Positions 11,415 through 64,000 of a DNA stretch of 64,000 bases are shown piece after piece. Each line of letters opens with the position of its first letter. Position 1 is the first letter of the stretch. Both the position numbers and the translations under genes were made by a program. The notes under the pieces were generated by a model. That model had not been told where the DNA came from, did no database searches, and saw nothing but the letters and a program-made list of their open reading frames with translations. The stretch is taken from NCBI GenBank assembly GCA_951406725.2, contig OX597816.1, positions 108,314,001 to 108,378,000 on the forward strand, in the 5' to 3' direction. This stretch comes from Octopus vulgaris. Its lineage: Eukaryota.

Positions 11415-12983
11415 TGTTTCTTTATTAGCCACACAGGGCTGCACACAGATAGAACAAATTACAAGGTAGAGCTTTTCTTTTGAAGGTTTTAAAAAAAAAA
11501 AAAAAAAAAAAGGAAGGGGGAGTTTCGATCAAAAGGGATCGTAAAAGGAGAGAAAGAGGACAAAAAAAAAGGGGGTTAAAAAAAAGGGGGAGAGGAAAAA
11601 AAATTGATCAATAGGGATCGTTATCACAGAAATGTCAATATGAAGTGTAAAGGGGAGGACAGGTGAGGTTTACCCGTGGAAAGAAAAGCCTACGGAAAAG
11701 ACCACGGTAACCTCGGTCAATGATGTCACATTTTATATTTCTTTTTTTTTTTTTTTTTGCAAATAAGCAACTCTCTGTTTTCGATTTCTGGGTTCATAGG
11801 ACTATGCTCAAGGTGGCTTCGTCATTCATACGCGCCATTCTTGCTACATTCACCCATCTTTTTTTAAAACATTCGCTAGACAAAACTTGCCTCTCTACTC
11901 TCACTTTCCTTTTCAAGTGGTACTTGAAGAAGTTGATGAGAGATTGACCAGAGAGGAAAGTGTTTGTCTCCAATCCTTTCAGACGCGTCCACCAGATACA
12001 TTCTTTCGCCATAGCCACAAGGATGATGAAAATAGCTCTTCCTTCCCGTTTGAAGGAAGGAGGCGTGACAATATTGACGATAGACTCAGCTGATAAACCG
12101 ACTCGTCCCACACGTGACAGCAGTTGTTCGACATAAGCCCACAGGTCGGAAATTGTTGGACACTGAACGAGTGCGTGCAGAACGGTTTCGTCGCTCTGAC
12201 CGCATCTCGGGCAGGTCGGCCCCGTGTTTCTCGAGCCGTGTCTGTAGAGCTTATCCCGAACGGGTAGCGCTTCTCGGTAGCACTGCCAGGCCAGGGATCT
12301 CTGGAAGTTGTCCATGGGCCCTGGCCCGAAAGTCGTCCTGAACAGGCGGGTCAGGTACTCCTCGTCGACGTCCAGGTTCGCCCCGAGCTCGTCGTCGTAC
12401 CTCCCCTCCACTAAACCCCTATAGAATGCTTTGGTTGTGTTGAAGTCACTTAAGGTCGACCCAGGACGGCAGAGTTGCTTGAGAGCAACGCGACACTCGC
12501 GGTGCCATTCGCCCTTCCTCGGCCTCTTTTTGATCCACGACTGCAGTTCGGTCATGGAGACGAGCTGCGGGAAAGCGTGCCTCACAAACGGCGACCACAC
12601 CTGTTCACCGTCGTCTACATAGAGCCAGAGATGCCGCAGTCTCAGCGCGTGTCTGCGCATCATCAACCACGGCATGCCCAGCCCTCCTTTTAACGGGTGT
12701 TGACAGCAAATGGATCGCCTGACCATCGGGACGCATCCTTTCCACAAGAAGCGAAAGAGGATGCGTTGTAGTTTGGTGATGGTAGGGTCGGGACAAGGTA
12801 CGACGGTCAGGCGGTAGTAGATGACGGACGCGATGTACGTGTTCGCCACCTCCGCTCGACCTTTTAGGGACAGTTTCCTCTCGGCCCATTGCCGGGCGAG
12901 AGTGACCACCCTACTCGTTATCTCGTTCCAGTTCTTCTCCACTTGGAGGTCCGGACCAAACCAGACCCCGAGCAACTCAACCG
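11414..12983 (-). mobile_element. 5'-truncated L1/Tx1-clade LINE (ORF2 C-terminus + 3'UTR) within (GATA)n
   Basis: open ORF 11794-12975 with LGVWF, WxxRxLSLKGR, CPRC...ETVLHALVQC (zf-RVT); GC-rich relative to flanks; AATAAA at 11421-11426(-); (TATC)n at both junctions. Confidence 0.9.
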
Positions 12984-13690
12984 GATAGATAGATAGATGG
13001 ATGGATAGATTGACCTAGGTATATTGTGTATATTTCTTAGTTATAGTGCTATCCGGATGCAGAAAAATACTGGAAACACTGAATACGAGACTTGACAGAA
13101 ATGCAAGAGGTTGTTTTACTGAACAAGTTAGAAAGATTAAAATATATTTAGCTGTTCTTAAATGGAATTCGGTGAGAATATCGCGAAAATGGAAAAGTCG
13201 CTTCGAAGAGCAAGACAAACATAAGGAAACCGTTCAGAATGCAACATGATAATAGGTTGAAAATATTGAAAGCACTGATAGCATAATGATCTAGTACAAA
13301 ACCTTGGAAGATCAGTTTTCGAAATTCGAGTTCTGATAAAATCAGAAATTTCCCTCTATTTTAAGTATTGAGTATACTGTCTGATTTGTTTTGTTTTGTT
13401 TTTTCTAGCGTTTTTTCATGTTCTAGCGTAGACATACGAATGTGTGTGTGTCTATGCTAAAACGTGTGCTCTGTGTGCGCGCGCACGTGTGCACGTGTTG
13501 CAAATAGTGATATTTCACAGATTTATTATTTTAATTTTTAGTAAAGAATTTTCACTTTCGCTAATTCTATACTTTGTTTCCCAATAATTATTGGAGTTAC
13601 ATACACATGCACACTCACATCCAGACTCACACACACAAACATTCACACATATATGCATGCATTCATATATATACATATATAGATACATAC

Positions 13691-27542: not shown

Positions 27543-29999
27543 AATATTAGGGAATAAATCCAAACTTACAGGAAAAAATTAGATTTAGGATTAAATCCAA
27601 TTTTATAGTATAAATATATTATATTATATTATATTAAATTAGAGATAAAACCACTATTAGGCAAATCAAACAGTGAAAAACATAAGCCAATACGTAAAAT
27701 TAATTTTAAAATATAAAAGTTAAAAATAAAAAATTATTTAAATAATTTAAACTTATAAATTTTATATATATATATATATATACAAATATATATATATATG
27801 TGTATATAGGTATATTTTTATATTTATATATTATTTTATTTATTAATTAATTAATTTATTTATTTATTTATTTTTTTAAATATCAAAAGTATTAAAAGTT
27901 TAATAAAAGATAAAGAGTAAAACACTACGATCGTTTCATGGCTGTACCAATTCGAATAACAATAAGTTTAATTCAATTAATAATTCGAGTTATGGTTACA
28001 GTCAATCTTCATTTAATTGAAATATTTAAAAAATAATCAGAAATATTTAAACAATATTTTAAAGATATAAATAATATAATAATTTTATTTATAATAAACT
28101 CTATTATCAAACTAGAAACTTAAAACTTAACAATTATAATTATATCAAAATCGATTATAATGTTAAATATTAATTTTAATTTATTAGGTAAGAAACCCAC
28201 CAATAATCTAATATCGGTAATAGTCTATATCTAATTACATAAATATTTTTTTTAAATGGCTATTATATATAAATTATCAATGAAAATATATAAATGTATA
28301 TAAATATTATAATTAAGATCTAAAATAATCTCTATAAATAAATATATATGCACATATAATAAAGACCTAATAAATTAATTTTTCATATTTAAAGATGAAA
28401 TAGCTAATTTCAAAAATACAAACAAACAAACTTAAACGAACTTTCGGAAATCTTATTTAAAATACTTACAGAAATAATCAATTCGTAGTTATATAGTATC
28501 GAATAAATACTATAAATACTATAAATATAATTATCAATGGAATAACTAGCGAATATCAATTTAAAAAGACAGTAACTAAGTTATGCTATTAAGTTAGACA
28601 TGCCTGGACCAATCTTTAGTCAAAACATATCTAAGTTTATCAAAGTTTATCTAATTTTAATTATAAGAACTCTATATTCAATAAACCATTAAATATTTAT
28701 TAAAAAATATATTTAGTAATAAAATATTTAGTAATAAAATAAACAACTATATATAAACTAACTATAATTAAAAACAGAACCTAAATAACTAAAATAAACT
28801 AATATAATAATTACTACAAATCACCTGCTATATTTAGAATACTATTACATAAATCAACAAATAAGGAGCTAATTAAGGCTAAGAAATATTCATTATTTAT
28901 CAAGAAATTTATTATATAAGTAAAGTAACTTGTGTCTGCATTTTATTTTGCGCTCATCCCAGGTATTCACTAAATTATCATGCTTATAAAATAAAATTTC
29001 TTTAAACTCATTTGAACATAAATAAAAATTCCCTCCTATACTATATGATTTAGCCTTACTAATTATTTCCCATGATAAATCATAATTAATATTTTGAGAT
29101 TTAAGTCCCCAAATGTACTTGCTAAGTCCAGTGGAGTTAATTAAGTTTTTATTTTTAAATGAATGCATATGCTGTGCGATTCTTAATTTTATTTTAGAGG
29201 AAGTGGACCCTATATATATATATCGCGTTTGAGTTATTATCATTATTATTATTCTCATCATGTAATGTAACACTACATTTATACACTACATCGTTAATAT
29301 CACATTTATTATTTAAGTTGCATTTAGTTTTATCTCTACATGTACAGTTAATTAGTGTCTTATCTTTTTTATTATTGGTATTATTATATAATTTTTTTTT
29401 CATAAAAATTATTCAGTTTAAATTTGTTAAAAGAAGAAATAATGTTACCTACACTATTAGTGGTAGAATAACCTACTCCAAAATTATTACTAGAGAAAAT
29501 GTTTTTATATTTACGATTATCTCGAATAAATAGTTCAATAATATCTAAAATCTCTATAATGATGTTCGTTTTAACTTGAGCACCATAAGGAACTATTAAC
29601 CAACTTTTATTCTTATTTTTCTTATTATTATTATTAAAACTATCATTATTATTATTACCATTATTATTATTATATTTCTTTATCATATTACTATTATTAT
29701 TATTAGATTTAAATTTATAATTAACATTTAAAGAATTATTAAAGTTATTATTTTTATTTTTACTCTTATTTTTATTTATATTATTTTTATTTTTATAATT
29801 TCTAAGATTATTACCAATATTACTAACAAAATTATTATAATTATTATTAATATTTTTATCTCTATTATTAATAGTTTTATCTTTATTTTTAATAAAAAAT
29901 TTAATATTACTATTATAACCTGCCTCTCTAAGGGCCTCATTGTAATAAGGAGCATGTTTATTAAAAATCTCTAATGCCTAATAGTGGTTTTATCTCTAA

Positions 30000-32269: not shown

Positions 32270-32790
32270 AAAGCTTTCCTTAGATTAATAGGTAAACACT
32301 TTAATACTAGATACAGAAAATTGTTTAGATAGAAATAATGTTATGTTTACGATTAGTTGTGCAACCAATATGAAGCAGATTACATCTTATAGTTTAACTC
32401 TACCCACTAAGGCTGTATATTCATGCAGAGACATTACCACTCGTCCACTCAATAGATCCTGCAATACAGAGGCTATCATCTATGAAGCAGGTATCAAGTC
32501 TTTTAACCCAGTCCCATTACTCCAACCTGAAGCGCTACATCTGTGTGATGAAAGCTCATTCAACAAAAACTTTGTAAACCACACCTCCCCATTTATTTAC
32601 ATTGGTAACTTAATGCAAGAGATTTGAAATTATGTTGAGTTGTTGAAAGTCGAAAGCGGCATACTATATCAGCTAAAATATAGTGATTGATAAGCATTCT
32701 GATGAAGAGAAAAAAGTGTGAGGACCGCCCAATAATTCTAATTAATAAAGCTGTTCTGTTTTGAACGAAAAAAGAATAGTACCGCTTACA
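32270..32790 (+). mobile_element. Highly decayed Penelope-like fragment
   Basis: FLRLIGKHF..YRKLF..ISCATNMKQI..SCRDITTRPLNRSCNTEAIIYEA resembles the PLE thumb / pre-GIY-YIG region. Confidence 0.55.
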
Positions 32791-41384: not shown

Positions 41385-41494
41385 TCTTGGAAAGATGAAA
41401 AACTAATCTGGGATCCAGCTGATTACAACAATTTATCAGTATTGCGTATTCCGTGCAATAAATTATGGCTTCCCGATATTGTTCTTTATAACAG
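41385..41494 (+). CDS. nAChR alpha subunit, 110-nt exon ([11 protein letters not shown]...WLPDIVLYN; loop A)
   Basis: ttttcag|TCTTGG...AACAG|gtaagt; WxPDIVLYN motif; ends in phase 2, compatible with the next exon (AG+T=Ser). Confidence 0.96.
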
Positions 41495-41773: not shown

Positions 41774-42970
41774 TAGTAAAAAGTGAAAAAACTACAGAAG
41801 GCTTGTTTTAAAAGGTTAAAAAATATATATTTGAGTTAATATGTCTGAAGAATATTATGAATTTTTTTCTTACAATGACATAGTTTAGAAGAAAGACCGG
41901 TTTCGCGTTTAGCTTTTCAAATTTCTTACGTCGTTATGTTTATGTTGAAAAGAGTTCTAAATAAGGGGAGGTAATTAGTGATTTCTTCCGGTGTAAGGGA
42001 GATAATCGCTTAAAATTTTTTGCCTTTCCCTTGGTATGAATTTCTCTGTATCAGTATGTTGGTATGGTTAAGTCTGGGCTTGTACTTTTCGATGAAGAAT
42101 GTTTCCTTGTTTAGTCTAATTTGTGTTTATGATCCGATAGCACATTGGTAAAATGGAAAGATTAAAAATTGTGGTAGTAGTTGCTTTGCGCATTTCTCAA
42201 TGTGTTCACTAAAAGGTATCATTCTGTATTCTGGGAATGCAATCTGTTGTCGATGCAGTGTGCATCTACGTCTGAGTGATAGTCCCGTGGATCCCACGTA
42301 GTCTTGGTGGCAGCCCGAGCAATTTAATAAAAAAAAAATTTTGTTTTCAGAGGCACAAGTAAAGTTAGATTTGATCTTGAATTTCTGTCCCTCTTTGAAG
42401 AGGAATTCTGATCCTTCTAGCAGGTTTGGACATGTTGCACAGTTCGATCTACCACATTTTTTTACTTTTGCATCCGTAATTTCAGAACACAATTTTGCCT
42501 TTGTGAGAATCTTTTTAAGTGATTTAGGTTGTTTGTAGCTTTTAATGATTTGGTGTATGTTTAGAATTTCCTTTAATTTGGGGTCCTTATGAAGTATTGG
42601 TAAATTCTGGGTGATGATGGTGAAGGCTTCTTTGTTTCTGGGGTTGTATGTAGATATGTAAGGTAGTATTTTCGGGGAAGGTGTGTTGTTGTGTTGAACT
42701 TTTCTTAAAGTTTCTATGTTGATTTCTGTTGCACGTCTGATCCCATCCTCTATGAGTTGAGCTGGGTAATGTCAGTCAATTAGGGTGTTTTTGAGTTCTT
42801 GCAGTCTAAAGTTCCTGGTATTTTGTTCTGACACTATTGTGCATATCCTTCTTGCAAGGTTGAAGGGGATGTTTGTTTTAGTGTGTCTTGGGTGGCATGA
42901 ATTAAAAAGAAGGTATTGTTTGGCGTCTGTGGCTTTGTAAAAAATGCCTGTTTCTATTTTAAGGTTAATT

Positions 42971-42978
<8 letters not shown>
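41770..42978 (-). mobile_element. 5'-truncated PLE (Neptune-like: CxxxxCxxC before GIY-YIG) with pLTR
   Basis: TDAKQYLLFNSCHPRH..IPFNLARRIC; KKCGRSNCATC; FTCASEN..CSGC..YVGST..RCTLH; (TA)n/(GA)n flanks. Confidence 0.9.
41889..41927 (-). ncRNA. Variant HHR-like motif (UUGAAAA core)
   Basis: reverse complement: aagaaau-UUGAAAA-gc(uaaac)gc-GAAAC-CG-GUC-uuucuu; 3' of the GIY-YIG ORF. Confidence 0.55.
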
Positions 42979-43172: not shown

Positions 43173-44995
43173 CAGGGGTGGGCAATTTACGGCCCTCCGG
43201 TTACATGTGGCCCGCCACAGAATTTTCTGTGGCCCGCGGGATTATTCATCAAAAAATGTTTCCACGTCTAAAATTTTCGTAAACTGATCACGATAAACTG
43301 CTATTGCCAAGGCTAACTTGAACCGAGACTTGCTTCCTTTGTGTCACAGAAAATTAACCCTGTGTTTTAATAGGCGGATACCTACTGCGCATGCACCCGT
43401 TCATACGCATGCGCAGTCCCTTCATACGCAACATTTTTCTCTTTGCAACTGTAAGATCTGTGACGTTCTGACCAGAGAAAACATGGGCCCTCCTAATAAG
43501 CGTAAAATCGAAAAAGAATGCAGTGCATTCAATGAAGACAGGACACACGAATATTTGTTCAGTAATTCAGGGAATAAGGCAGTGTGTTTACTGTGTCACG
43601 AAACGGTTGCCGTATTCAAGGAGTATAATTTTAAACGACACCACCAAACAAAACATGGCGTGTGAGGTAGCGAAATGTCCAAAGAAGAACGCAGGAAAAA
43701 GCAACATACCATAATTACGAAGCAATTGACACTTCGGGATAGTGCTAGAGAAAAGCAAGCTTCAACGTAGCATACAACCTCGCTAAAAATAACAAGCCAA
43801 TTTCTGATGGCGAGTTTGTTAAGTTGTGCTTGGTAGATTTCATGCAATTGAAAAAACCGCATAATTCATGGGATGACACAATATTTTGCATCAGGAAAGC
43901 CTCTATAAAGCTACACTGGACCTAGAGCATGTGGTGAATCCTGTAGTGAGCGTGGTGAACACAATCAGAGCAAGGGCGCTCTACCATAGACAATTTAAAT
44001 CTCTGTTTGAGAATATGGATCGAGAGTATGGAGATGTGATTTACCACAACAGTGTTCGGTGGTTGAGCCAGGGCTAAATGCTTTCATGTAATTTTGTGGC
44101 CAAAATGGGATGTCAGAAATGGAGATATGAGATGATGTTTACAGCTGATATGTTTGAGAAATTAAATGAATTGAATGTGACATTCAAGGGATTGTATGTT
44201 TAGGCTTGTGAGATCATTCAAAATAAAACTCGGTCTATTTGAAAAGCAAACAAGTGAGATTAAGTTTTGTCATTTCCCTTTATTAAGAAAACAAAAAGTG
44301 CCTGCAACTATTTCTTCCAAGATTATGAATTATTGCTGAGTTTGGAGGATGCGGTCACAAGATTTCAGGGTTTAAGTCAATTGAGCCTGATTTAAATCTG
44401 TTATCCTATCCTTTCGCTGCTTATATTGTATTGATACAGTACCTGAGGAGGTGCAGCTTGAAGAATTAATAGCCATGCACTCAGATCACACGCTGAAAGA
44501 AATGTTTAATTCTATGACATTGATAGAATTTTACAAATCTCAATCTACTGACAATTTTCCATGCGCGAAGAAATTTGCTAGGAACATGTTTTCTGTTTTT
44601 GGATCCACATATATTTGTAAGCAAATCTTTCCTTGTATGAAAATCAGCAAGAGTAAAAATGGATCCTCTGTGACTGACATAAACTTGCAGGCAGTAATGA
44701 GGATCTCAACAAGTAACTTCACTCCTGAAGTTTCAAAAAGAATTGTAAATAAGTGTGACAGGTTACATTTGTCACATTAAATTACTTGTGCTGACTGATG
44801 TGTAATTTGCACATAAATGAATTTAATGAAACCTTTTCTGTGTACCACTATTGTTTTGGTTTGAATTGTTTATTACTATGATGTAATTTACACTTCACAT
44901 TTAATGAAATGTAATGCTAACTAATGAATACGATCAATTATAGAAGGTGCGGCCCTTCAAAGAGGCCCCCAAGCCAAAACAGTTGCCCACCCTTG
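43173..44995 (+). mobile_element. hAT (Charlie/SPIN/GTF2IRD2-like) DNA transposon, internally deleted
   Basis: TIRs caggggtgggcaa / ttgcccacccttg; BED finger CLLC..KRHHQTKH; HQESL, IRARALYHRQFK, VRWLS, FGSTYICKQIF; 8-bp TSD not intact. Confidence 0.9.
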
Positions 44996-47054: not shown

Positions 47055-48347
47055 CGAGGGGCGTTCAATAAGTAATGCTCCTGACCCACTTCCCATTGCA
47101 GTAGAGCAACGAAACTTGGTACAGTTATTAGTCTTTTTCTACATAGGAACCACCCAGAGTTACGCATTTCTCCCATCGTTTGATGCAGCTCTGGAGACCG
47201 TTTTTGTAGAAGACCCAAGCTTGGTCCTCCAACCACGACGTGACTTCAGAAATCAAGGCTGCATCATCTGGGAAACGCTTTCCTTTCAAAAACAACTTAA
47301 TGGCTGGGAAGAGGTGAAAATCAGAGGGTGCAAGGTCAGGAAAGTAAGGGGGATGGGGGAGGAGTTCATAGCCACACGCCTGTGCTTCTGATCTGGCGAC
47401 ACGCGAGTTGTGGACCGGAGCGTTGTCCTGCAGGAGGAGGATGCCTTTTCTGATCTTGCCCCGCCTCTTGATTTTGATAACTTCTCTTAATTTCCTCAAA
47501 AGTGAAGCATAATAGGCTCCTGTAATTGTGGTACCCTTTGCCAGGAAATCTGTCATCACTACTCCGTCCTGGTCCCAGAAGACTGTGAGCATGACCTTGC
47601 CAGCGGAGGGCTACACCCTTGCCTTCTTTGGAGGAGGTGAGTCACGGTGCTTCCACTGCACTGACTGGGCTTTGGTCTCTGGATCATAGTGATGGACCCA
47701 GGTTTCATCCTATGTAATCAGTCTTTTGAAAAATTTTGACTCATCTTCTTGGCACATCTCCAAATTCATCCTCGAGCACTTGACGCGTTCTTGCTTCTGG
47801 AAAGGTGTGAGCAACCTGGGAATCCATCTGGCAGACACCTTTTGCATATGCAAATGGTCATGAATGATAGTTTCCACAGACCCGGTACTAATCTTGACCT
47901 GATGGGCTATTTGGCGAATTGTTATGCGTCGATCTTCCAAAATGGCAGCTTCAACTTGACGGACAGATGCCTCATCAATGGCAGAAGCGGGGTGACCAGA
48001 TCTGGGAGCTGTTTCCACAGAGTTCCGACCATGTTTGAATTCACGATGCCAGCGTTTTGCAAGGTCATATGATGGGGCATCATCACCATAAGTTACTTTC
48101 ATTTCATCAAAAGTCTCCCGTGGTGTGCGTCCTTTCAAATACAAAAACCGGATCACTGCTCGACATTCAACAGGCTCCATTTCACACTTGACTCAGTTCA
48201 AACACCTGTAAATCAGAAACCACAATCAGTTCAGAGTTGTAATTTGCCGCTTAATCGATGGAGATATAAATAATTGCACATGCAACATTTCAGCTAGATC
48301 AAACAACTGCAAGTGGGTCAGGGGGATTACTTATTGAACGTCCCTCG
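47055..48347 (-). mobile_element. Full-length mariner (DD34D) element, 1293 bp
   Basis: TIRs cgaggggcgttcaataagtaat / attacttattgaacgtccctcg flanked by TA; WIPRLL, DETW, QDNAP, YFPDLAPSDF. Confidence 0.96.
47128..48180 (-). pseudogene. Mariner transposase, 351 codons with two in-frame TAG stops
   Basis: ORFs 47710-48180 and 47128-47592 share one frame; bridge reads IT*DETWVHHYDPETK...ARV*PSAGKVM. Confidence 0.92.
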
Positions 48348-53564: not shown

Positions 53565-53826
53565 TGCTGACGATTATACGCATGGCTACATGCAAGCATT
53601 GACCATGGTCCACAGCGACGGAACAGTGTTCTGGCCACCTATTGTCAAACTCAGGAGTACCTGTGACATCAAAATTACATATTTCCCATTCGATGACCAG
53701 ATCTGTCGAATGAAACTTGGTTCATGGGCCTATGACGGATTTCAAGTAAATGTACATGACAGCGAAAAAGCTATCGATCTGGATAATTTTGTATCTAACG
53801 GTGAATGGCTTTTAGTCGATGTTAAG
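53565..53826 (+). CDS. nAChR alpha subunit, 262-nt exon (Cys-loop CDIKITYFPFDDQIC, loop B SWAYDG)
   Basis: ttcctag|TGCTGAC...GTTAAG|gtgagt; Cys-X13-Cys signature; ends in phase 0. Confidence 0.97.
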
Positions 53827-54281: not shown

Positions 54282-54337
<56 letters not shown>

Positions 54338-54424
54338 TATTAGAGACAAAACCACTATTTTGCAAAACAAACAAGGAAAGACTTAATCAATACATAAAAT
54401 TTTAATAAATAGTCAAAAAAACCG

Positions 54425-54467
54425 CCACTACAATTGTTTCTTGTCTTGATCGACAATCTTCAGGTGG
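54425..54467 (-). ncRNA. Type I HHR (exact inverted copy of 58956-58998)
   Basis: ccactacaattgtttcttgtcttgatcgacaatcttcaggtgg. Confidence 0.85.
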
Positions 54468-57400
54468 ACTTCCAATCTAAAATATCAATATTTTAAAAAT
54501 ATAAAAATAATAATTTTAAAATAATTAAAGTATGAATGAAAAAATATAAATATATAATCCATATATAACCTATATATAATCCATATATAATCAATATATA
54601 AACAATATATAAACTAAAATAAACCTATCAACAATTAAATATAAAATATAAAATATAAAATATAAAATATAAAACAAAACAAAAAAATAATAATAATATA
54701 ATAATAAACTATATATACACCCATACACATATACCTAATTATATATAACCATATCTAACTACATACACTAAATCACACACCTATATATATATCCCTATAC
54801 ATACACATAAAAACGTCTAGGCAACTATAAATAAATAAAATAGCTAAATACTTCAACACAATACTTATTCATACTCCCACACACACACACATACAACCCA
54901 CATTCACGCTCTAGAAAACGGACATCACTTAAAATTATGAACGGAGAAATGGAATAAATGGAATTAAAAATTATATTCACTTGGTAAAACGAACACTACT
55001 TAAAAATTATGAATGAAACAATGCAATAAAACAACAGACATCGCAAATAGACACAAATTACTACGAATTCCTTAACAAACCTACCATGATAAACCAAAAC
55101 TCATAAAAACATATAATGATAAAATCTCCTTTACTAAACTCTATAACATACCTATATAGCAATCCCCCTAACCTAAACATTCACACACAAATACACACAC
55201 ATAAACCACACACCCACGACATATACAAATACCCACACCACTTACACATACCTATACATACATATAAACCTCAACATATACTCCAAAAACCCACTCAACC
55301 CCACACAGACAAATAAACACAAAAATTATGAATGGATTCTTTTATAAAACTACCATGATAAGCTAAAACTCACAAAACATAAATGATAAAACCTCCCTTT
55401 ACTAAACACTATAACATACTTATATAGCAATCCCTTTAACCTATACATTCACACACAAATACACACACGTAAACCACACACCCATAACAAATACAAACAC
55501 CCACCCCACTCACACACACCCACAAGTACATATAAGCCTCAACATATACACCAAACAAAATTACTTTACCAAGGAACTTAACATATGTATAAAAAATATA
55601 TAACCGCTCTGGAAACGAACATCTTTAAAATAATGAATGGAGAAATGGAATAAATGGAATTAAAAATAATATTCACGTGGCAAAACGAACACCACTCAAA
55701 AATTATGAATGAAACAATGTAATAAAACAACCAACATCGAAAATAGACAAATTACCACGAATTCCCTAAAAAAAACCATGATAAACCAAAACTCTTAAAA
55801 ACATATAACGATAAAATCTCCCTTTGCTAAACTCTATAACAAACCTATATAGCAATCCCCCTAACCTAAACATTCACACACAAAAACACACACGTAAACC
55901 ACAGACCCACAACTTATACACATACCTATACTAACTTATAAACCTCAATATACACCAAAAACCCACTCCCTCCCACAGAGACAAATTAACACATACATCC
56001 CAAAACCTAAATAACAAACCCATATACACATTCACACACAAACACACACACACGCAAAACACACACACACAACAGATACATATACTCCCTCAATATACGC
56101 ATATACATACTCACTAAACTCGATATATACAACAATATTTACACACCCACACTCATACAGATAAATAAATTATACAACTAAAAAGTCACACACAATCTCA
56201 TATACATAAACACTCCAATAAAAAACAACATTAAATACATCGTAATTAACCAGAATATCAAAAATAACAATATGACATAAGGAGAAATAAAATACATACT
56301 TACAAGTCAGTTTCAAATTATGAAGTGAAATTAAATTCTTAGCCGTTAAAAAAATCAAACCAAAATTACGTTACCATAGAATATAACTTATGTAAAAAAA
56401 GAAAAGAATACGCGCCATGGAAAGTAAACGTCATTTAAAATTATGAATGGAGAAATAGAATAAATGGAACTAAAAACTATATCCACGTGGCAAACCATCA
56501 CTACTTTAAAAAAAATTTATTATGAATGGATTCTTTAATAAAACTACCATAATAAATTATTATATACATTTATGAGCTTTAGCTCATCTTAGCAGCTCTA
56601 ACAAACAACTTGCAGTAACCCAAATCTATTCTCGATGCCTGCCTTACTACTACACTATTCCATTCCCAATTCCAAGCAACGCTAGCCCACCACCCAGTTA
56701 CAATTCCCAACTCCACCCATTCATTCACAATTTCAACGACGTTCACCTCCACAGCGCTACATATAAGCCTCAACATATACACCGGAGATTCGCTTTCACA
56801 TCCGTGCGGATGGGTGAGAGTATACATTGAGTGTAGTGATGGGGCTCCCATTACTATACACATTTGTACCTGTGTGGTAGTCTCCATGTGTATATTCACG
56901 CACGGGTATAAATGCAGGGGGTACACGCGCACGGCATGTACGTGTACCCCCTCACATGTACATATGCATGCTAGTTGGGCTCGATATGTGCAACAATGTA
57001 ATCGCGCCCGCATACATGCATATGGGCGAGTTGCACAATCAAAATACGCACACGTGTGTGTGCGTTCCCTGGTTGTGCAATTCACCCATCTGGGTGTGAG
57101 TGGGTGTATGCGTATTGCTGTGGATGTCGAGCTTAATACGTATGTATATGAGTGTGTATTGGGGGGTTGTACGTATTTATTGTGTGCATGTGCTTCACGC
57201 ACGTGCGTCCATGTATGGATGAATATATTGGGATTGCTATGTGGGTGTAAATTGGGTATGGAGGGGGGAGTTTTGTCATTGTATGGGTGTAGGTTTCATT
57301 TGTGATGGTTGTTTGTTGGTGATTTTTAATATGTTCTGTATATTTGGGTTAGTTATGTATTATTCTAGTGTGTATAATTGTATACATATGATTGGTGTAA

Positions 57401-58955
57401 GTGGGATTAAGCCCATTTTTGGGGATGTATGTGTTTATTTGTCCGTATGGGGCGGGAGTGGCCGTTTGGTGTATATTTTGAGGCTCACATGCAATTCCAG
57501 GTACGCGCGAATGAAGTGGGCACTTATATTTGTTATGGGTGTGTATACTTTATTATAACAGACAATACCCAAATAAAATCTGTCAATTCAACATACCAAA
57601 TAAAAAACAAAAAACAAAGGGATCGTAAACATTCACACATACATACAAAACTCAATAAAAACACCACTAAATAACACCCATCAACCAATAAATATATCCT
57701 CCAAAATACATATAACAAATGCATAATAAAAATACATAATAAAATAAAATAAAAATAAAAAAATTAAAAAATTAAAAAATAAAAAAAAATAAAATATAAA
57801 AAATATATAAATAAAGAAAATAAAAAAATCTAATATAAATTATTAAAGTTTTAACATACCATAAACTGTTATATTAATATACATTAAAAATGAACTAATT
57901 AAAACAAAGAAATATCAATAAAGACTAACTATAATTAAAGCCTAGACTACATAACCAACATTCATAATTTTTGAGTGGTGTTCGTTTTGCCACGTGAATA
58001 TTATTTTTAATTCCATTTATTCCATTTCTCCATTCATTATTTTAAAGATGTTCGTTTCCAGAGCGGTTATATATTTTTTATACATATGTTAAGTTCCTTG
58101 GTAAAGTAATTTTGTTTGGTGTATATGTTGAGGCTTATATGTACTTGTGGGTGTGTGTGAGTGGGGTGGGTGTTTGTATTTGTTATGGGTGTGTGGTTTA
58201 CGTGTGTGTATTTGTGTGTGAATGTATAGGTTAAAGGGATTGCTATATAAGTATGTTATAGTATTTAGTAAAGGGAGGTTTTATCATTTATGTTTTGTGA
58301 GTTTTAGCTTATCATGGTAGTTTTATAAAAGAATCCATTCATAATTTTTGTGTTTATTTGTCTGTGTGGGGTTGAGTGGGTTTTTGGAGTATATGTTGAG
58401 GTTTATATGTATATATAGGTATGTAGTGTTCGTTTTACCAAGTGAATATAATTTTTAATTCCATTTATTCCATTTCTCCGTTCATAATTTTAAGTGATGT
58501 CCGTTTTCTAGAGCGTGAATGTAGGTTGTATGTGTGTGTGTGTGTGGGAGTATGAATAAGTATTGTGTTGAAGTATTTAGCTATTTTATTTATTTATAGT
58601 TGCCTAGACGTTTTTATGTGTATGTATAGGGATATATATATAGGTGTGTGATTTAGTGTATGTAGTTAGATATGGTTATATATAATTAGGTATATGTGTA
58701 TGGGTGTATATATAGTTTATTATTATATTATTATTATTTTTTTGTTTTGTTTTATATTTTATATTTTATATTTTATATTTTATATTTAATTGTTGATAGG
58801 TTTATTTTAGTTTATATATTGTTTATATATTGATTATATATGGATTATATATAGGTTATATATGGATTATATATTTATATTTTTTCATTCATACTTTAAT
58901 TATTTTAAAATTATTATTTTTATATTTTAAAATATTGATATTTTAGATTGGAAGT

Positions 58956-58998
58956 CCACCTGAAGATTGTCGATCAAGACAAGAAACAATTGTAGTGG
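58956..58998 (+). ncRNA. Type I HHR
   Basis: ccac-CUGAAGA-uuguc(gaucaa)gacaa-GAAAC-AAUU-GUA-gugg; palindromic ACAAUUGU; predicted cut after A58994. Confidence 0.85.
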
Positions 58999-59508
58999 CG
59001 GTTTTTTTGACTATTTATTAAAATTTTATGTATTGATTAAGTCTTTCCTTGTTTGTTTTGCAAAATAGTGGTTTTGTCTCTAATAATATTTTATAATATT
59101 TTACTATAAAATTGGATTTAATCCTAAATCTGATTTTTTCCCTGTAAATTTGGATTTATTCCCTAATATTTATTATTATATATATATATATATATATATA
59201 TACTGACATACAGACATCATTTATAACTTTTTATGTATGTACTTCGAGAATCAATTCCTCCTCAACCAAAGAAAAAGAATTATATCTACATATCACCATG
59301 TAACCCTACACACGCTTTCCTTGAACTATTTTCCTTCTCCAGACCTTTCTTCTCTCCTCTTTCGAACAAAGAGCCAAGCTCGAAACGTCGTTATACACCA
59401 ACTCTTTTATCCACCTTCATTGAGCGTCAAGCTAATACAATACAATCCATCTGAACGTCCTTTTGACTTTTATTGTTTTGCTATTTGTTATTTTTAATAT
59501 TCGCTCTA

Positions 59509-59573: not shown

Positions 59574-59847
59574 GTAAAAAAGAATGTAGTGTACTACGCT
59601 TGCTGTGATGAACCATTCCCAGATGTCACTTTCTATATCCATATGAGACGGCGGACTCTATATTATACATACAACGTCATCATTCCGTGCGTTATGTTAT
59701 CTATTCTGACACTGATGGGTTTCTGGATGAGACCAGACAGTGGAGAAAAAGTTACCCTCGGTTTAACTGTGCTACTTGCCTTTTCAGTATTCATGTTACT
59801 GATTGCTGAAAATATGCCGGCTACTTCTAATTTTGTTCCCCTTATAG
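59574..59847 (+). CDS. nAChR alpha subunit, 274-nt exon (loop C YYACCDEPFPD, M1, GEK-M2, M2-M3 loop)
   Basis: ttttgtag|GTAAAA...CTTATAG|gtgagt; vicinal Cys pair defines an alpha subunit; SGEKVTLGLTVLLAFSVFMLLIAENMP is a cation-type M2. Confidence 0.97.
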
Positions 59848-59900
59848 GTGAGTCAATTTCTTTATTAATTTATGCATAAATACACGCACGCACGCATATG

Positions 59901-62680: not shown

Positions 62681-63336
62681 TTGCACCACTTTTTATACTA
62701 TATTAGATGACTTTATATTGTATGTCATTAAAATATATTCATATCTTTAAACTTTATTTTTATCATTAAACATACGTTTGTGTATATCTTGAATCCTGCG
62801 TATCATCCTATATGCATGCGTGTATGTGTGTGTGTGAGTGCGTATGTTTACTGCATAACCTCTGTACCTGTATATTCGGTATATACTTTATACATCTGAT
62901 ATACATGCTTCTCATAATTTGTATAGTATATATTATGATGTATATCTTATCATTTATTTCATTATAATACACGTTATATATTATATCATTTATATTTTGC
63001 AACTTTAGCCGTGTTATTTCTTTTATTCTTTCGTCCTTTTATTGCACTGCGGTTATTTTAACGTATATCGATATACTTATATATATATATATATATATTA
63101 TATATAAAAGGGCTTAGTAAAATAAATTACTTTGCCGCATACTGAACTCATTAGAAATAGCAGCATGTTGTTTGTTGATTTTAACCCACGCTGGTGGAAG
63201 GGGGAGAGCAGAAATTCTTCGCTTGCATATTTGAATTTGCTGGCACTGTTAGTTGCGAGTAGATCTTCGGAGGCGATGGGAAGCCGAATAGGTATGCTCC
63301 TGCTTTCAGTATTTTCAAATCCAAACCAGGGAGTTC

Positions 63337-63389
63337 TGAGCTGATGATAGAAGTGTCGAGTTTGACTAATCTTGAAACGTACGTTCTCA
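63337..63389 (+). ncRNA. Type I HHR, tandem copy 1
   Basis: ugag-CUGAUGA-uaga.guc(gaguuu)gac.ucuu-GAAAC-GUAC-GUU-cuca; palindromic AACGUACGUU. Confidence 0.82.
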
Positions 63390-63896
63390 AATAACCTTTG
63401 CATTTGATTTTTTAATGTTTCTACCCTCATACTTTCGTGAGTTGAATTGAACAAGCACTATATGAGAGAGATTTTCTTTAAGTATTGGAAATAGTTTTAA
63501 AAAAGTTTTTTTTAGCTGCTATTTCTAATGAGTTCAGTATGCGGCAAAGTAATTTATTTTACTAAGCCCTTTTATATAATATAATAATTTGAATTCGTCT
63601 TAAATGGTCCCTTTGCATACTGAATACTTGGTGAAATTGATTAATTAATTAATTTTACCCTCAATTGTTGAAATTATAATTCATCTTTCTCTATTTAATG
63701 CCTCGGATTTTACCGAAAAAAAGCATGTTGTTTGTTGATTTTAACCCACGCTGGTGGAAGGGGGAGAGCAGAAATTCTTCGCTTGCATATTTGAATTTGC
63801 TGGCACTGTTAGTTGCGAGTAGATCTTCGGAGGCGATGGGAAGCCGAATAGGTATGCTCCTGCTTTCAGTGTTTTCAAATCCAAACCAGGGAGTTC

Positions 63897-63949
63897 TGAG
63901 CTGATGATAGAAGTGTCGAGTTTGACTAATCTTGAAACGTACGTTCTCA
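63897..63949 (+). ncRNA. Type I HHR, tandem copy 2
   Basis: identical to 63337-63389. Confidence 0.82.
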
Positions 63950-64000
63950 AATAACCTTTGCATTTGATTTTTTAATGTTTCTACCCTCATACTTTCGTGA

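What the first reader, a model, noticed from the sequence alone, without database searches (positions are those of the whole stretch)
63101..64000. Sense-strand tandem hammerhead pair that could excise a 560-nt (circularisable) RNA from the nAChR intron
Seen: two identical HHR motifs (63337-63389, 63897-63949) exactly 560 bp apart, on the receptor's coding strand, with a self-complementary stem III (AACGUACGUU). Known: minimal type I HHRs of PLEs and metazoan non-LTR retrozymes cleave efficiently as dimers through palindromic stem III and yield monomer or circular RNAs. Inference: a read-through transcript (M3/M4 exons must lie further downstream) could fold into an intramolecular double hammerhead, cut after 63385 and 63945, and release a retrozyme-like RNA while severing a neuronal pre-mRNA intron. 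Near-identity of the repeats implies a recent insertion.
Basis: partly seen in the sequence, partly recalled or inferred. Interest (0 to 1): 0.85.

Follow-up and report, generated by a model that had tools for sequence, protein, structure and literature searches.

The report
Penelope-driven hammerhead retrozyme in receptor intron
Two copies of a 560-base repeat, each carrying a predicted self-cutting RNA motif, sit in an intron of an acetylcholine-receptor gene; they are one insertion of a widespread parasitic repeat family that is likely copied from an RNA circle by Penelope-type retrotransposon enzymes, and probably have no special role for this gene.

Summary
In detail: two identical type I hammerhead motifs lie 560 bp apart on the sense strand of a 59.9-kb nAChR intron. 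The locus is not special. It is one young insertion of a dispersed family (1,487 GUU-type motifs genome-wide, plus GUA-type sisters), a non-LTR retrozyme. The family carries the Penelope-like-element (PLE) signature: in 40 loci, 65 of 68 outer 3' ends fall at two sites 95 nt apart, running into (TA)n; 25 of 28 two-armed loci have one of each, none has the same twice. Arrays are nearly haplotype-pure across both arms and read through the cut site without scars, which points to reverse transcription of one monomer, probably a circle. Cleavage, circles and expression were not shown, and no autonomous partner was found. Retrozymes as non-autonomous PLE derivatives are in print (2020 hypothesis, 2026 preprint), with about 43% intronic in Xenopus. 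This scan noted similar repeats on other DNA (sea-squirt retrozyme; tRNA-bearing PLE-type repeat). What is added here is the insertion-signature evidence and a locus-specific circle test. Verdict: new member of a known kind, interest 0.4.

The parts
63078..63095 (.). (TA)n target microsatellite, left flank (a (TA)n run also follows the right end, beyond the window)
63094..63164 (-). Inverted, 5'-truncated arm: reverse complement of unit positions 354-422, ending at 3' end site 1
63162..63721 (+). Unit 1 (560 nt, 34% GC, non-coding); carries three private substitutions (63311, 63581, 63598)
63722..64000 (+). Unit 2, continuing to equivalent position 64229 (unit position 508, near 3' end site 2), then (TA)n
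63337..63389 (+). Type I hammerhead motif 1; predicted cut after 63385 (GUU)
63897..63949 (+). Type I hammerhead motif 2; predicted cut after 63945
63515..63678 (+). Conserved end module: long stem enclosing end site 1 (63583, unit position 422) and a hairpin just before end site 2 (63678, position 517); the 95 nt between are the PLE-type tail
59574..59847 (+). nAChR alpha-type exon (loop C vicinal cysteines, M1-M2); the host intron starts at 59848 and is 59,926 nt long
53565..53826 (+). nAChR Cys-loop exon

Best explanation
This is one recent insertion of a dispersed, non-coding family of 545-563-nt tandem hammerhead repeats (a non-LTR retrozyme) that is likely moved by the enzymes of a Penelope-like retrotransposon, probably from a monomeric RNA circle. 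Shown by the sequence: tandem units, one intact hammerhead per unit, two fixed 3' ends 95 nt apart, inverted 5'-truncated arms, (TA)n targets, arrays of nearly one haplotype each. Inferred steps: (1) a transcript through two or more units pairs two hammerheads by their palindromic helix III and cuts twice; (2) a host ligase closes the monomer; (3) a PLE RT/GIY-YIG protein binds the conserved end module, nicks a (TA)n tract on both strands and starts cDNA at site 1 on one side and site 2 on the other; (4) RT runs round the circle for 0.1 to 16 turns, giving head-to-tail units, and the two arms are joined back to back. The nAChR intron is a chance landing place; any cutting of the receptor pre-mRNA would be a side effect.
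For: Family: 214 matches at the 40 best-scored of 1,484 candidates; 1,487 exact GUU-type motifs versus 0 for the reversed control; 276 GUA/GUC-type pattern hits versus 1 (about 9 in 10 of the 100 listed are this family). Selection on the RNA: across 9 monomers of several subfamilies only 2 of 27 core/helix I/helix III sites vary, and they are the two free positions N7 and H17; end module 11 of 164; rest 114 of 343. PLE signature: 36 ends at 517, 29 at 422, 3 other; of 28 two-armed loci 25 are 422/517 and none 422/422 or 517/517. A coding Hydra-like PLE in the same genome shows the same two-end pattern in 2 of 2 inverted copies where both ends could be read; PMC11167929 equates the tail with two RT start sites. 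Single-unit template: derived alleles fixed in all units 63 (n>=3) plus 23 (n=2), singletons 139, partial 20; about 3 substitutions/kb within loci versus 34/kb between; one sister array has 11 units with no substitution between them. No insertion or deletion at the cut site in 165 copies, and 2 of 68 5' truncations lie within 10 nt of it. Circular monomers fold better than shuffles (z -3.5 here, -5.7 to -9.3 in four sisters).
Against: No cleavage, ligation or expression was shown. No autonomous PLE sharing the end module was found; two young coding PLE families have no nucleotide match to the unit. Twenty partial alleles do not fit one clean circle: L033 has a private allele in the 5 proximal of 8 units across both arms, as a linear multimer would give, and L036 is mosaic. 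Rapid local expansion after insertion would also give pure arrays. GUU lets the palindrome extend to A14-U17, which could hinder the core (inference). In Xenopus only 1 of 9 dimers cleaved (10.64898/2026.07.22.740005), PLE minimal hammerheads are slow (PMC4209133), and the anole PLE does not need its hammerhead to insert in vitro (PMC11167929). The 40 loci are the best-scoring ones, so biased to young, long copies; 100 of 560 slippage-prone columns were masked.
Confidence: 0.62

Rival explanations
1. PLE machinery inserts short copies, and the arrays then grow in place by unequal crossover or slippage; no circle is involved (the scenario discussed by Li, Clavereau and Pollet 2026).
For: It keeps the fixed ends and gives pure arrays from one founder; 15 partial one-arm alleles, some in adjacent units.
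Against: Both inverted arms share fixed derived alleles (40 cases with n>=3); most within-array variants are singletons (139 versus 20 partial); arm lengths form a smooth 50-9,065 nt series like RT truncation; a founder already needs more than one unit.
Confidence: 0.17
2. The template is an uncleaved linear multi-unit transcript; the hammerhead is slow or protein-dependent and not needed for insertion.
For: PMC11167929 (hammerhead dispensable, no RNA-seq ends at the cut site); 8 of 9 Xenopus dimers inactive; L033 pattern and one mirror-only allele in L045.
Against: It does not explain how dozens of alleles become fixed in every unit of an array, nor the strict conservation of the core; mirror units shared 1 of 49 minor variants, no more than offset controls (0 of 39, 1 of 54).
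Confidence: 0.14
3. The pair is a functional attenuator: co-transcriptional cutting of the intron tunes nAChR mRNA, as the CPEB3 ribozyme does in mouse neurons.
For: Sense strand, 3.5 kb from the 5' splice site and 55.8 kb before the 3' splice site, so there is time to cut; precedent in PMC10919898 (abstract seen).
Against: Very young copy (0.3% divergence, 95% range 0.06-0.9%) of a family with hundreds of loci; nothing sets it apart from the others; another sense hammerhead sits in the preceding intron; about 43% of Xenopus retrozymes are intronic.
Confidence: 0.06
4. The duplication is an assembly artefact.
For: Repeat flanked by microsatellites.
Against: Three substitutions between units; family-typical ends and inverted arm; tandem arrays at most other loci.
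Confidence: 0.01

Closest known systems
Metazoan non-LTR retrozymes (Cervera and de la Pena 2020, PMC7229834; read parts 1-3 of 6 and the Discussion), especially axolotl Rtz353 with HHR_Amex2
   Same: Dispersed low-GC tandem repeats with one type I hammerhead per unit; U-U at the base of helix II, 2-bp helix III with palindromic tetraloop; self-paired monomer; proposed circle intermediate and PLE mobiliser.
   Different: Unit 545-563 nt versus 170-400 nt; GUU cut site in most copies; fixed two-site ends, inverted arms and (TA)n targeting are not described there ('inverted', 'microsatellite', 'cephalop' 0 occurrences).
[quoted passage not shown]
   Same: Retrozymes as non-autonomous PLE derivatives; units of 51-972 bp; 42-44% of Xenopus copies intronic.
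   Different: Their evidence is co-occurrence and pLTR homology in vertebrates; no molluscs, no tail signature ('tail' 0 occurrences); they suggest local expansion by unequal crossover. Here the evidence is the insertion signature and haplotype purity, and the pLTR donor is not found.
EN+ Penelope-like elements (Hydra, Neptune, Naiad) and non-autonomous Chlamys elements such as MRC1 (Craig et al. 2021, passages seen; Frangieh et al. 2024, PMC11167929, parts 1-2 of 4 read)
   Same: Partial tandems, inverted 5'-truncated copy, tail at one end only, (TA)n targets, multi-copy head-to-tail non-autonomous forms.
   Different: No ORF; tail of 95 nt versus 30-40 nt; MRC1-type elements mostly lack hammerheads.
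Intronic CPEB3 ribozyme (PMC10919898, abstract only)
   Same: Self-cleaving motif on the sense strand of a neuronal gene's intron.
   Different: CPEB3 is a single conserved HDV-like ribozyme with shown activity; this is a young copy of a mobile family with no activity data.

Membership tests
Type I hammerhead ribozyme | Conserved core (CUGANGA, GAAA, NUH) with helices I-III in type I order | tested here: met
   only N7 and H17 vary among 27 core/helix I/III sites. Rfam models do not detect it.
Type I hammerhead ribozyme | Self-cleavage | not testable with these tools
   GUU is listed among active NUH sites in PMC3138052 (passage); no rate known for this motif.
Type I hammerhead ribozyme | Loop 1-loop 2 tertiary contacts of canonical motifs | not tested
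   Helix I is 4 bp and helix II is interrupted, closer to PLE minimal motifs (PMC4209133).
Non-LTR retrozyme | Tandem units, each with a type I hammerhead, at many dispersed loci | tested here: met
Non-LTR retrozyme | Non-coding, low GC, no LTR architecture | tested here: met
   34% GC; longest stop-to-stop frame over the element 119 aa; no match to PLE proteins in arrays; no tRNA module. PBS/PPT not searched formally.
Non-LTR retrozyme | Unit size in the known range | tested here: met
   545-563 nt: inside 51-972 bp (2026 preprint), above 170-400 nt (2020 paper).
Non-LTR retrozyme | Expressed as linear and circular monomer RNA | not testable with these tools
   No run on record as RNA, contigs only.
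Non-autonomous Penelope-like element | Two alternative 3' ends (tail on one side only) | tested here: met
   25 of 28 two-armed loci 422/517, none symmetric.
Non-autonomous Penelope-like element | Inverted 5'-truncated copy and partial tandems; microsatellite target | tested here: met
   28 of 40 loci two-armed; outer 3' ends run into (TA)n.
Non-autonomous Penelope-like element | Sequence shared with the pLTR or 3' end of an autonomous PLE | tested here: inconclusive
   No match to the two young coding families examined or by eye to several decayed fragments; the genome holds many more PLE families that were not examined.

The most novel reading that the evidence does not exclude
These arrays are a genomic record of two-site, rolling-circle reverse transcription of a ribozyme-made RNA circle by a PLE protein, and the stem-plus-hairpin module shared by at least four 540-580-nt retrozyme families in this genome is the RNA signal that sets both start sites. 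That would give direct support to the circle model for PLE/retrozyme tandems and a small defined substrate to test it.
Probability: 0.5. Interest if true: 0.65.

Novelty: new member of a known kind. Interest (0 to 1): 0.4.

Why it matters
Why PLEs keep hammerheads and how their tandem and inverted copies arise is still open: the one in vitro PLE system did not need the ribozyme. A young, protein-free family with two mapped start sites, pure arrays and a conserved end module makes the circle model testable. The receptor context matters little unless cutting is shown to lower nAChR mRNA.

Tried and rejected
Rfam: no hammerhead hit at either threshold; not taken as evidence against, given the conservation pattern. 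MFE folding of the isolated motif does not give the active fold. Expression: no RNA holder listed; laying contigs of 4 runs (3 guessed RNA, 1 unknown) covered 26-30 of 30 bins and showed a go-back joint at the unit boundary in 2 runs, but contigs show no ends or strand and tandems give the same joint; used neither for nor against. Partner hunt: the window's PLE fragment led to a Neptune-like family (811-aa frame, about 4.0-kb unit) and a pattern hit led to a Hydra-like family (717 aa, 2,590-bp unit); neither matches the unit. Ten unrelated single hammerheads had no intact PLE ORF beside them. Three families sharing the end module turned out to be short tandem elements too (about 578, 549 and 540 nt). 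For the Neptune-like family only one of two suspected ends was confirmed. Searches used wrong gap lengths and their counts (5, 11) mean nothing. The first mirror test was biased by using locus majority as reference; redone with outgroup polarity: 16 of 63 mirror opportunities shared, 14 of them from two near-fixed alleles (L033, L036) and 2 from one mirror-only allele (L045). No tRNA module. Literature: 'retrozyme'+'octopus' and 'octopus'+'hammerhead ribozyme' found no description of this family (search listings); bioRxiv supplements and Repbase could not be seen and may list it.

Full report
Observation. Each has helix I (4 bp), CUGAUGA, a helix II that opens with U-U, GAAA, a 2-bp helix III closed by a palindromic loop, and GUU before the predicted cut (63385, 63945). 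A strict pattern finds 4 such motifs in the window and none in 200 shuffles. Rfam misses them. The host gene is an alpha-type nAChR on the + strand. Its M1-M2 exon ends at 59847 and the M3 exon starts at equivalent position 119774, so the intron is 59,926 nt; M4 follows. The genome is 2.8 Gb in 227 contigs; its style suggests a cephalopod, which is my recall and was not tested.

Anatomy. Reading past the window gives: (TA)n, a 71-nt inverted arm (unit positions 354-422), unit 1 (560 nt), unit 2 (508 nt), (TA)n. There are only two hammerheads and no ORF. The units differ at 3 of 508 sites, all private changes in unit 1, or 0.3% per copy (95% range 0.06-0.9%). That fits a real, recent insertion.

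Family. The unit gave 214 matches at the 40 best of 1,484 candidates; I fetched all 40 loci. Exact patterns count 1,487 GUU-type motifs (control 0) and 276 GUA/GUC-type hits (control 1, about 9 in 10 of the 100 listed in this family). The first 100 listed fall in about 50 clusters by my count, so there are probably 700-900 loci. Sister subfamilies have 545-563-nt units at 83-90% identity and the same ends. Across 9 monomers, 2 of 27 core, helix I and helix III sites vary, and these are N7 and H17; the end module varies at 11 of 164 sites; the rest at 114 of 343 (the sequences are related, so the contrast is indicative). Position 10.1 is U, G or A opposite U. This is the pattern expected of a motif kept under selection.

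PLE signature. Of 68 outer 3' ends, 36 fall at unit position 517, 29 at 422 and 3 elsewhere; they run into (TA)n. Of 28 two-armed loci, 25 have one end of each kind and none has the same kind twice. Craig et al. (passages) describe this for PLEs: partial tandems, an inverted 5'-truncated copy, a tail on one end only, (TA)n targets. Frangieh et al. show that the tail lies between two internal RT start sites. A coding Hydra-like PLE in this genome shows the same pattern in both inverted copies where both ends could be read. The end module folds as a long stem around site 1 and a hairpin before site 2 (local z -2.8 to -4.0). Three other short tandem hammerhead families share it, with a compensatory change in the stem.

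Template. Units within a locus differ by about 3 substitutions per kb, locus majorities by 34 per kb. With outgroup polarity and 100 slippage-prone columns masked, derived alleles are fixed in all units 63 times (three or more units) plus 23 times (two units), single 139 times, partial 20 times. Forty of the fixed ones span both inverted arms. One sister array has 11 units with no substitution between them. So lineages pass again and again through a single unit. No indel marks the cut site in 165 copies and 5' truncations do not gather there (2 of 68), which argues against end-to-end jumps on a cut linear monomer. A covalent circle explains all this most simply, as proposed in PMC4209133 and PMC7229834. 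Against it: L033 has a private allele in 5 proximal units of 8, L036 is mosaic, L045 has one mirror-only allele, and fast local expansion could also give pure arrays.

Activity. Not shown. The palindrome pairs well between two motifs (-9.8 to -11.8 kcal/mol) and not within one (+1.5 to +2.4). Axolotl HHR_Amex2 has the same U-U and 2-bp helix III, cuts 22% in an hour as a monomer and much better as a dimer. But PLE minimal motifs are slow, 8 of 9 Xenopus dimers did not cut, and the anole motif needs protein. Sequencing-run tools gave nothing usable on expression.

The receptor link. If the dimer cuts, the pre-mRNA would be severed 3.5 kb into a 60-kb intron; CPEB3 is a precedent for an effect (abstract). 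Nothing marks this copy as selected. It is young, one of hundreds, the previous intron holds another sense hammerhead, and 42-44% of Xenopus retrozymes are intronic.

Comparison and novelty. It works like, and meets the testable features of, a non-LTR retrozyme, and it has the insertion signature of a non-autonomous PLE; homology to a coding partner was not found in the two families examined. The idea that retrozymes are PLE derivatives is in print. My searches found no description of this family or of the tail signature in retrozymes; supplements of the preprints were closed. Earlier scan notes describe a sea-squirt retrozyme and a tRNA-bearing PLE-type repeat on other DNA. Verdict: new member of a known kind, interest 0.4; the value lies in the family-level mechanism, not in the receptor intron.

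Noticed in passing
window 54322-59170: A 4.8-kb inverted-repeat element flanked by (TA)n fills most of the previous nAChR intron, with an identical compact type I hammerhead near each end (+ strand at 58960, - strand at 54463; GUA site). Probably another PLE-type insertion.
   Followed up: partly
window 42130-42972 (-): 3' part of a young Neptune-like PLE (RT thumb and GIY-YIG); the family has many copies with an 811-aa frame, a second upstream frame of about 495 aa and a unit of about 4.0 kb; my scan found no hammerhead in it.
   Followed up: partly
L156-L160 (G000:C1:57213200-57220000 and others): Young Hydra-like PLE family (717 aa, CxCx5C linker, 2,590-bp unit) whose hammerhead-like motif has a CCGAAGA core variant.
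   Followed up: partly
L161:1736-2400, L176, L183, L042:1700-2300: Further short tandem hammerhead families: about 549 nt with the U3-A8 core variant, about 578 nt (GUC), about 540 nt (6-bp helix I, 557 pattern hits), and about 250 nt; all share the motif upstream of end site 1. One 578-type copy lies in the same nAChR intron (L026:2090-2400).
   Followed up: partly
L029:2080-2141: The 5' junction of one family copy falls inside helix III of a different hammerhead, possibly a template switch.
   Followed up: no
window 47128-48192 (-), 43297-44780 (+), 11797-13014 (-), 29007-29382 (-), 32325-32681 (+): Mariner remnant, hAT/SPIN-type remnant, 3' part of a non-LTR retrotransposon (zf-RVT), and two decayed Hydra-like PLE fragments.
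   Followed up: no
window about 41388-41490 (+): An upstream nAChR ligand-binding-domain exon (WKDEKLIW...LWLPDI).
   Followed up: no
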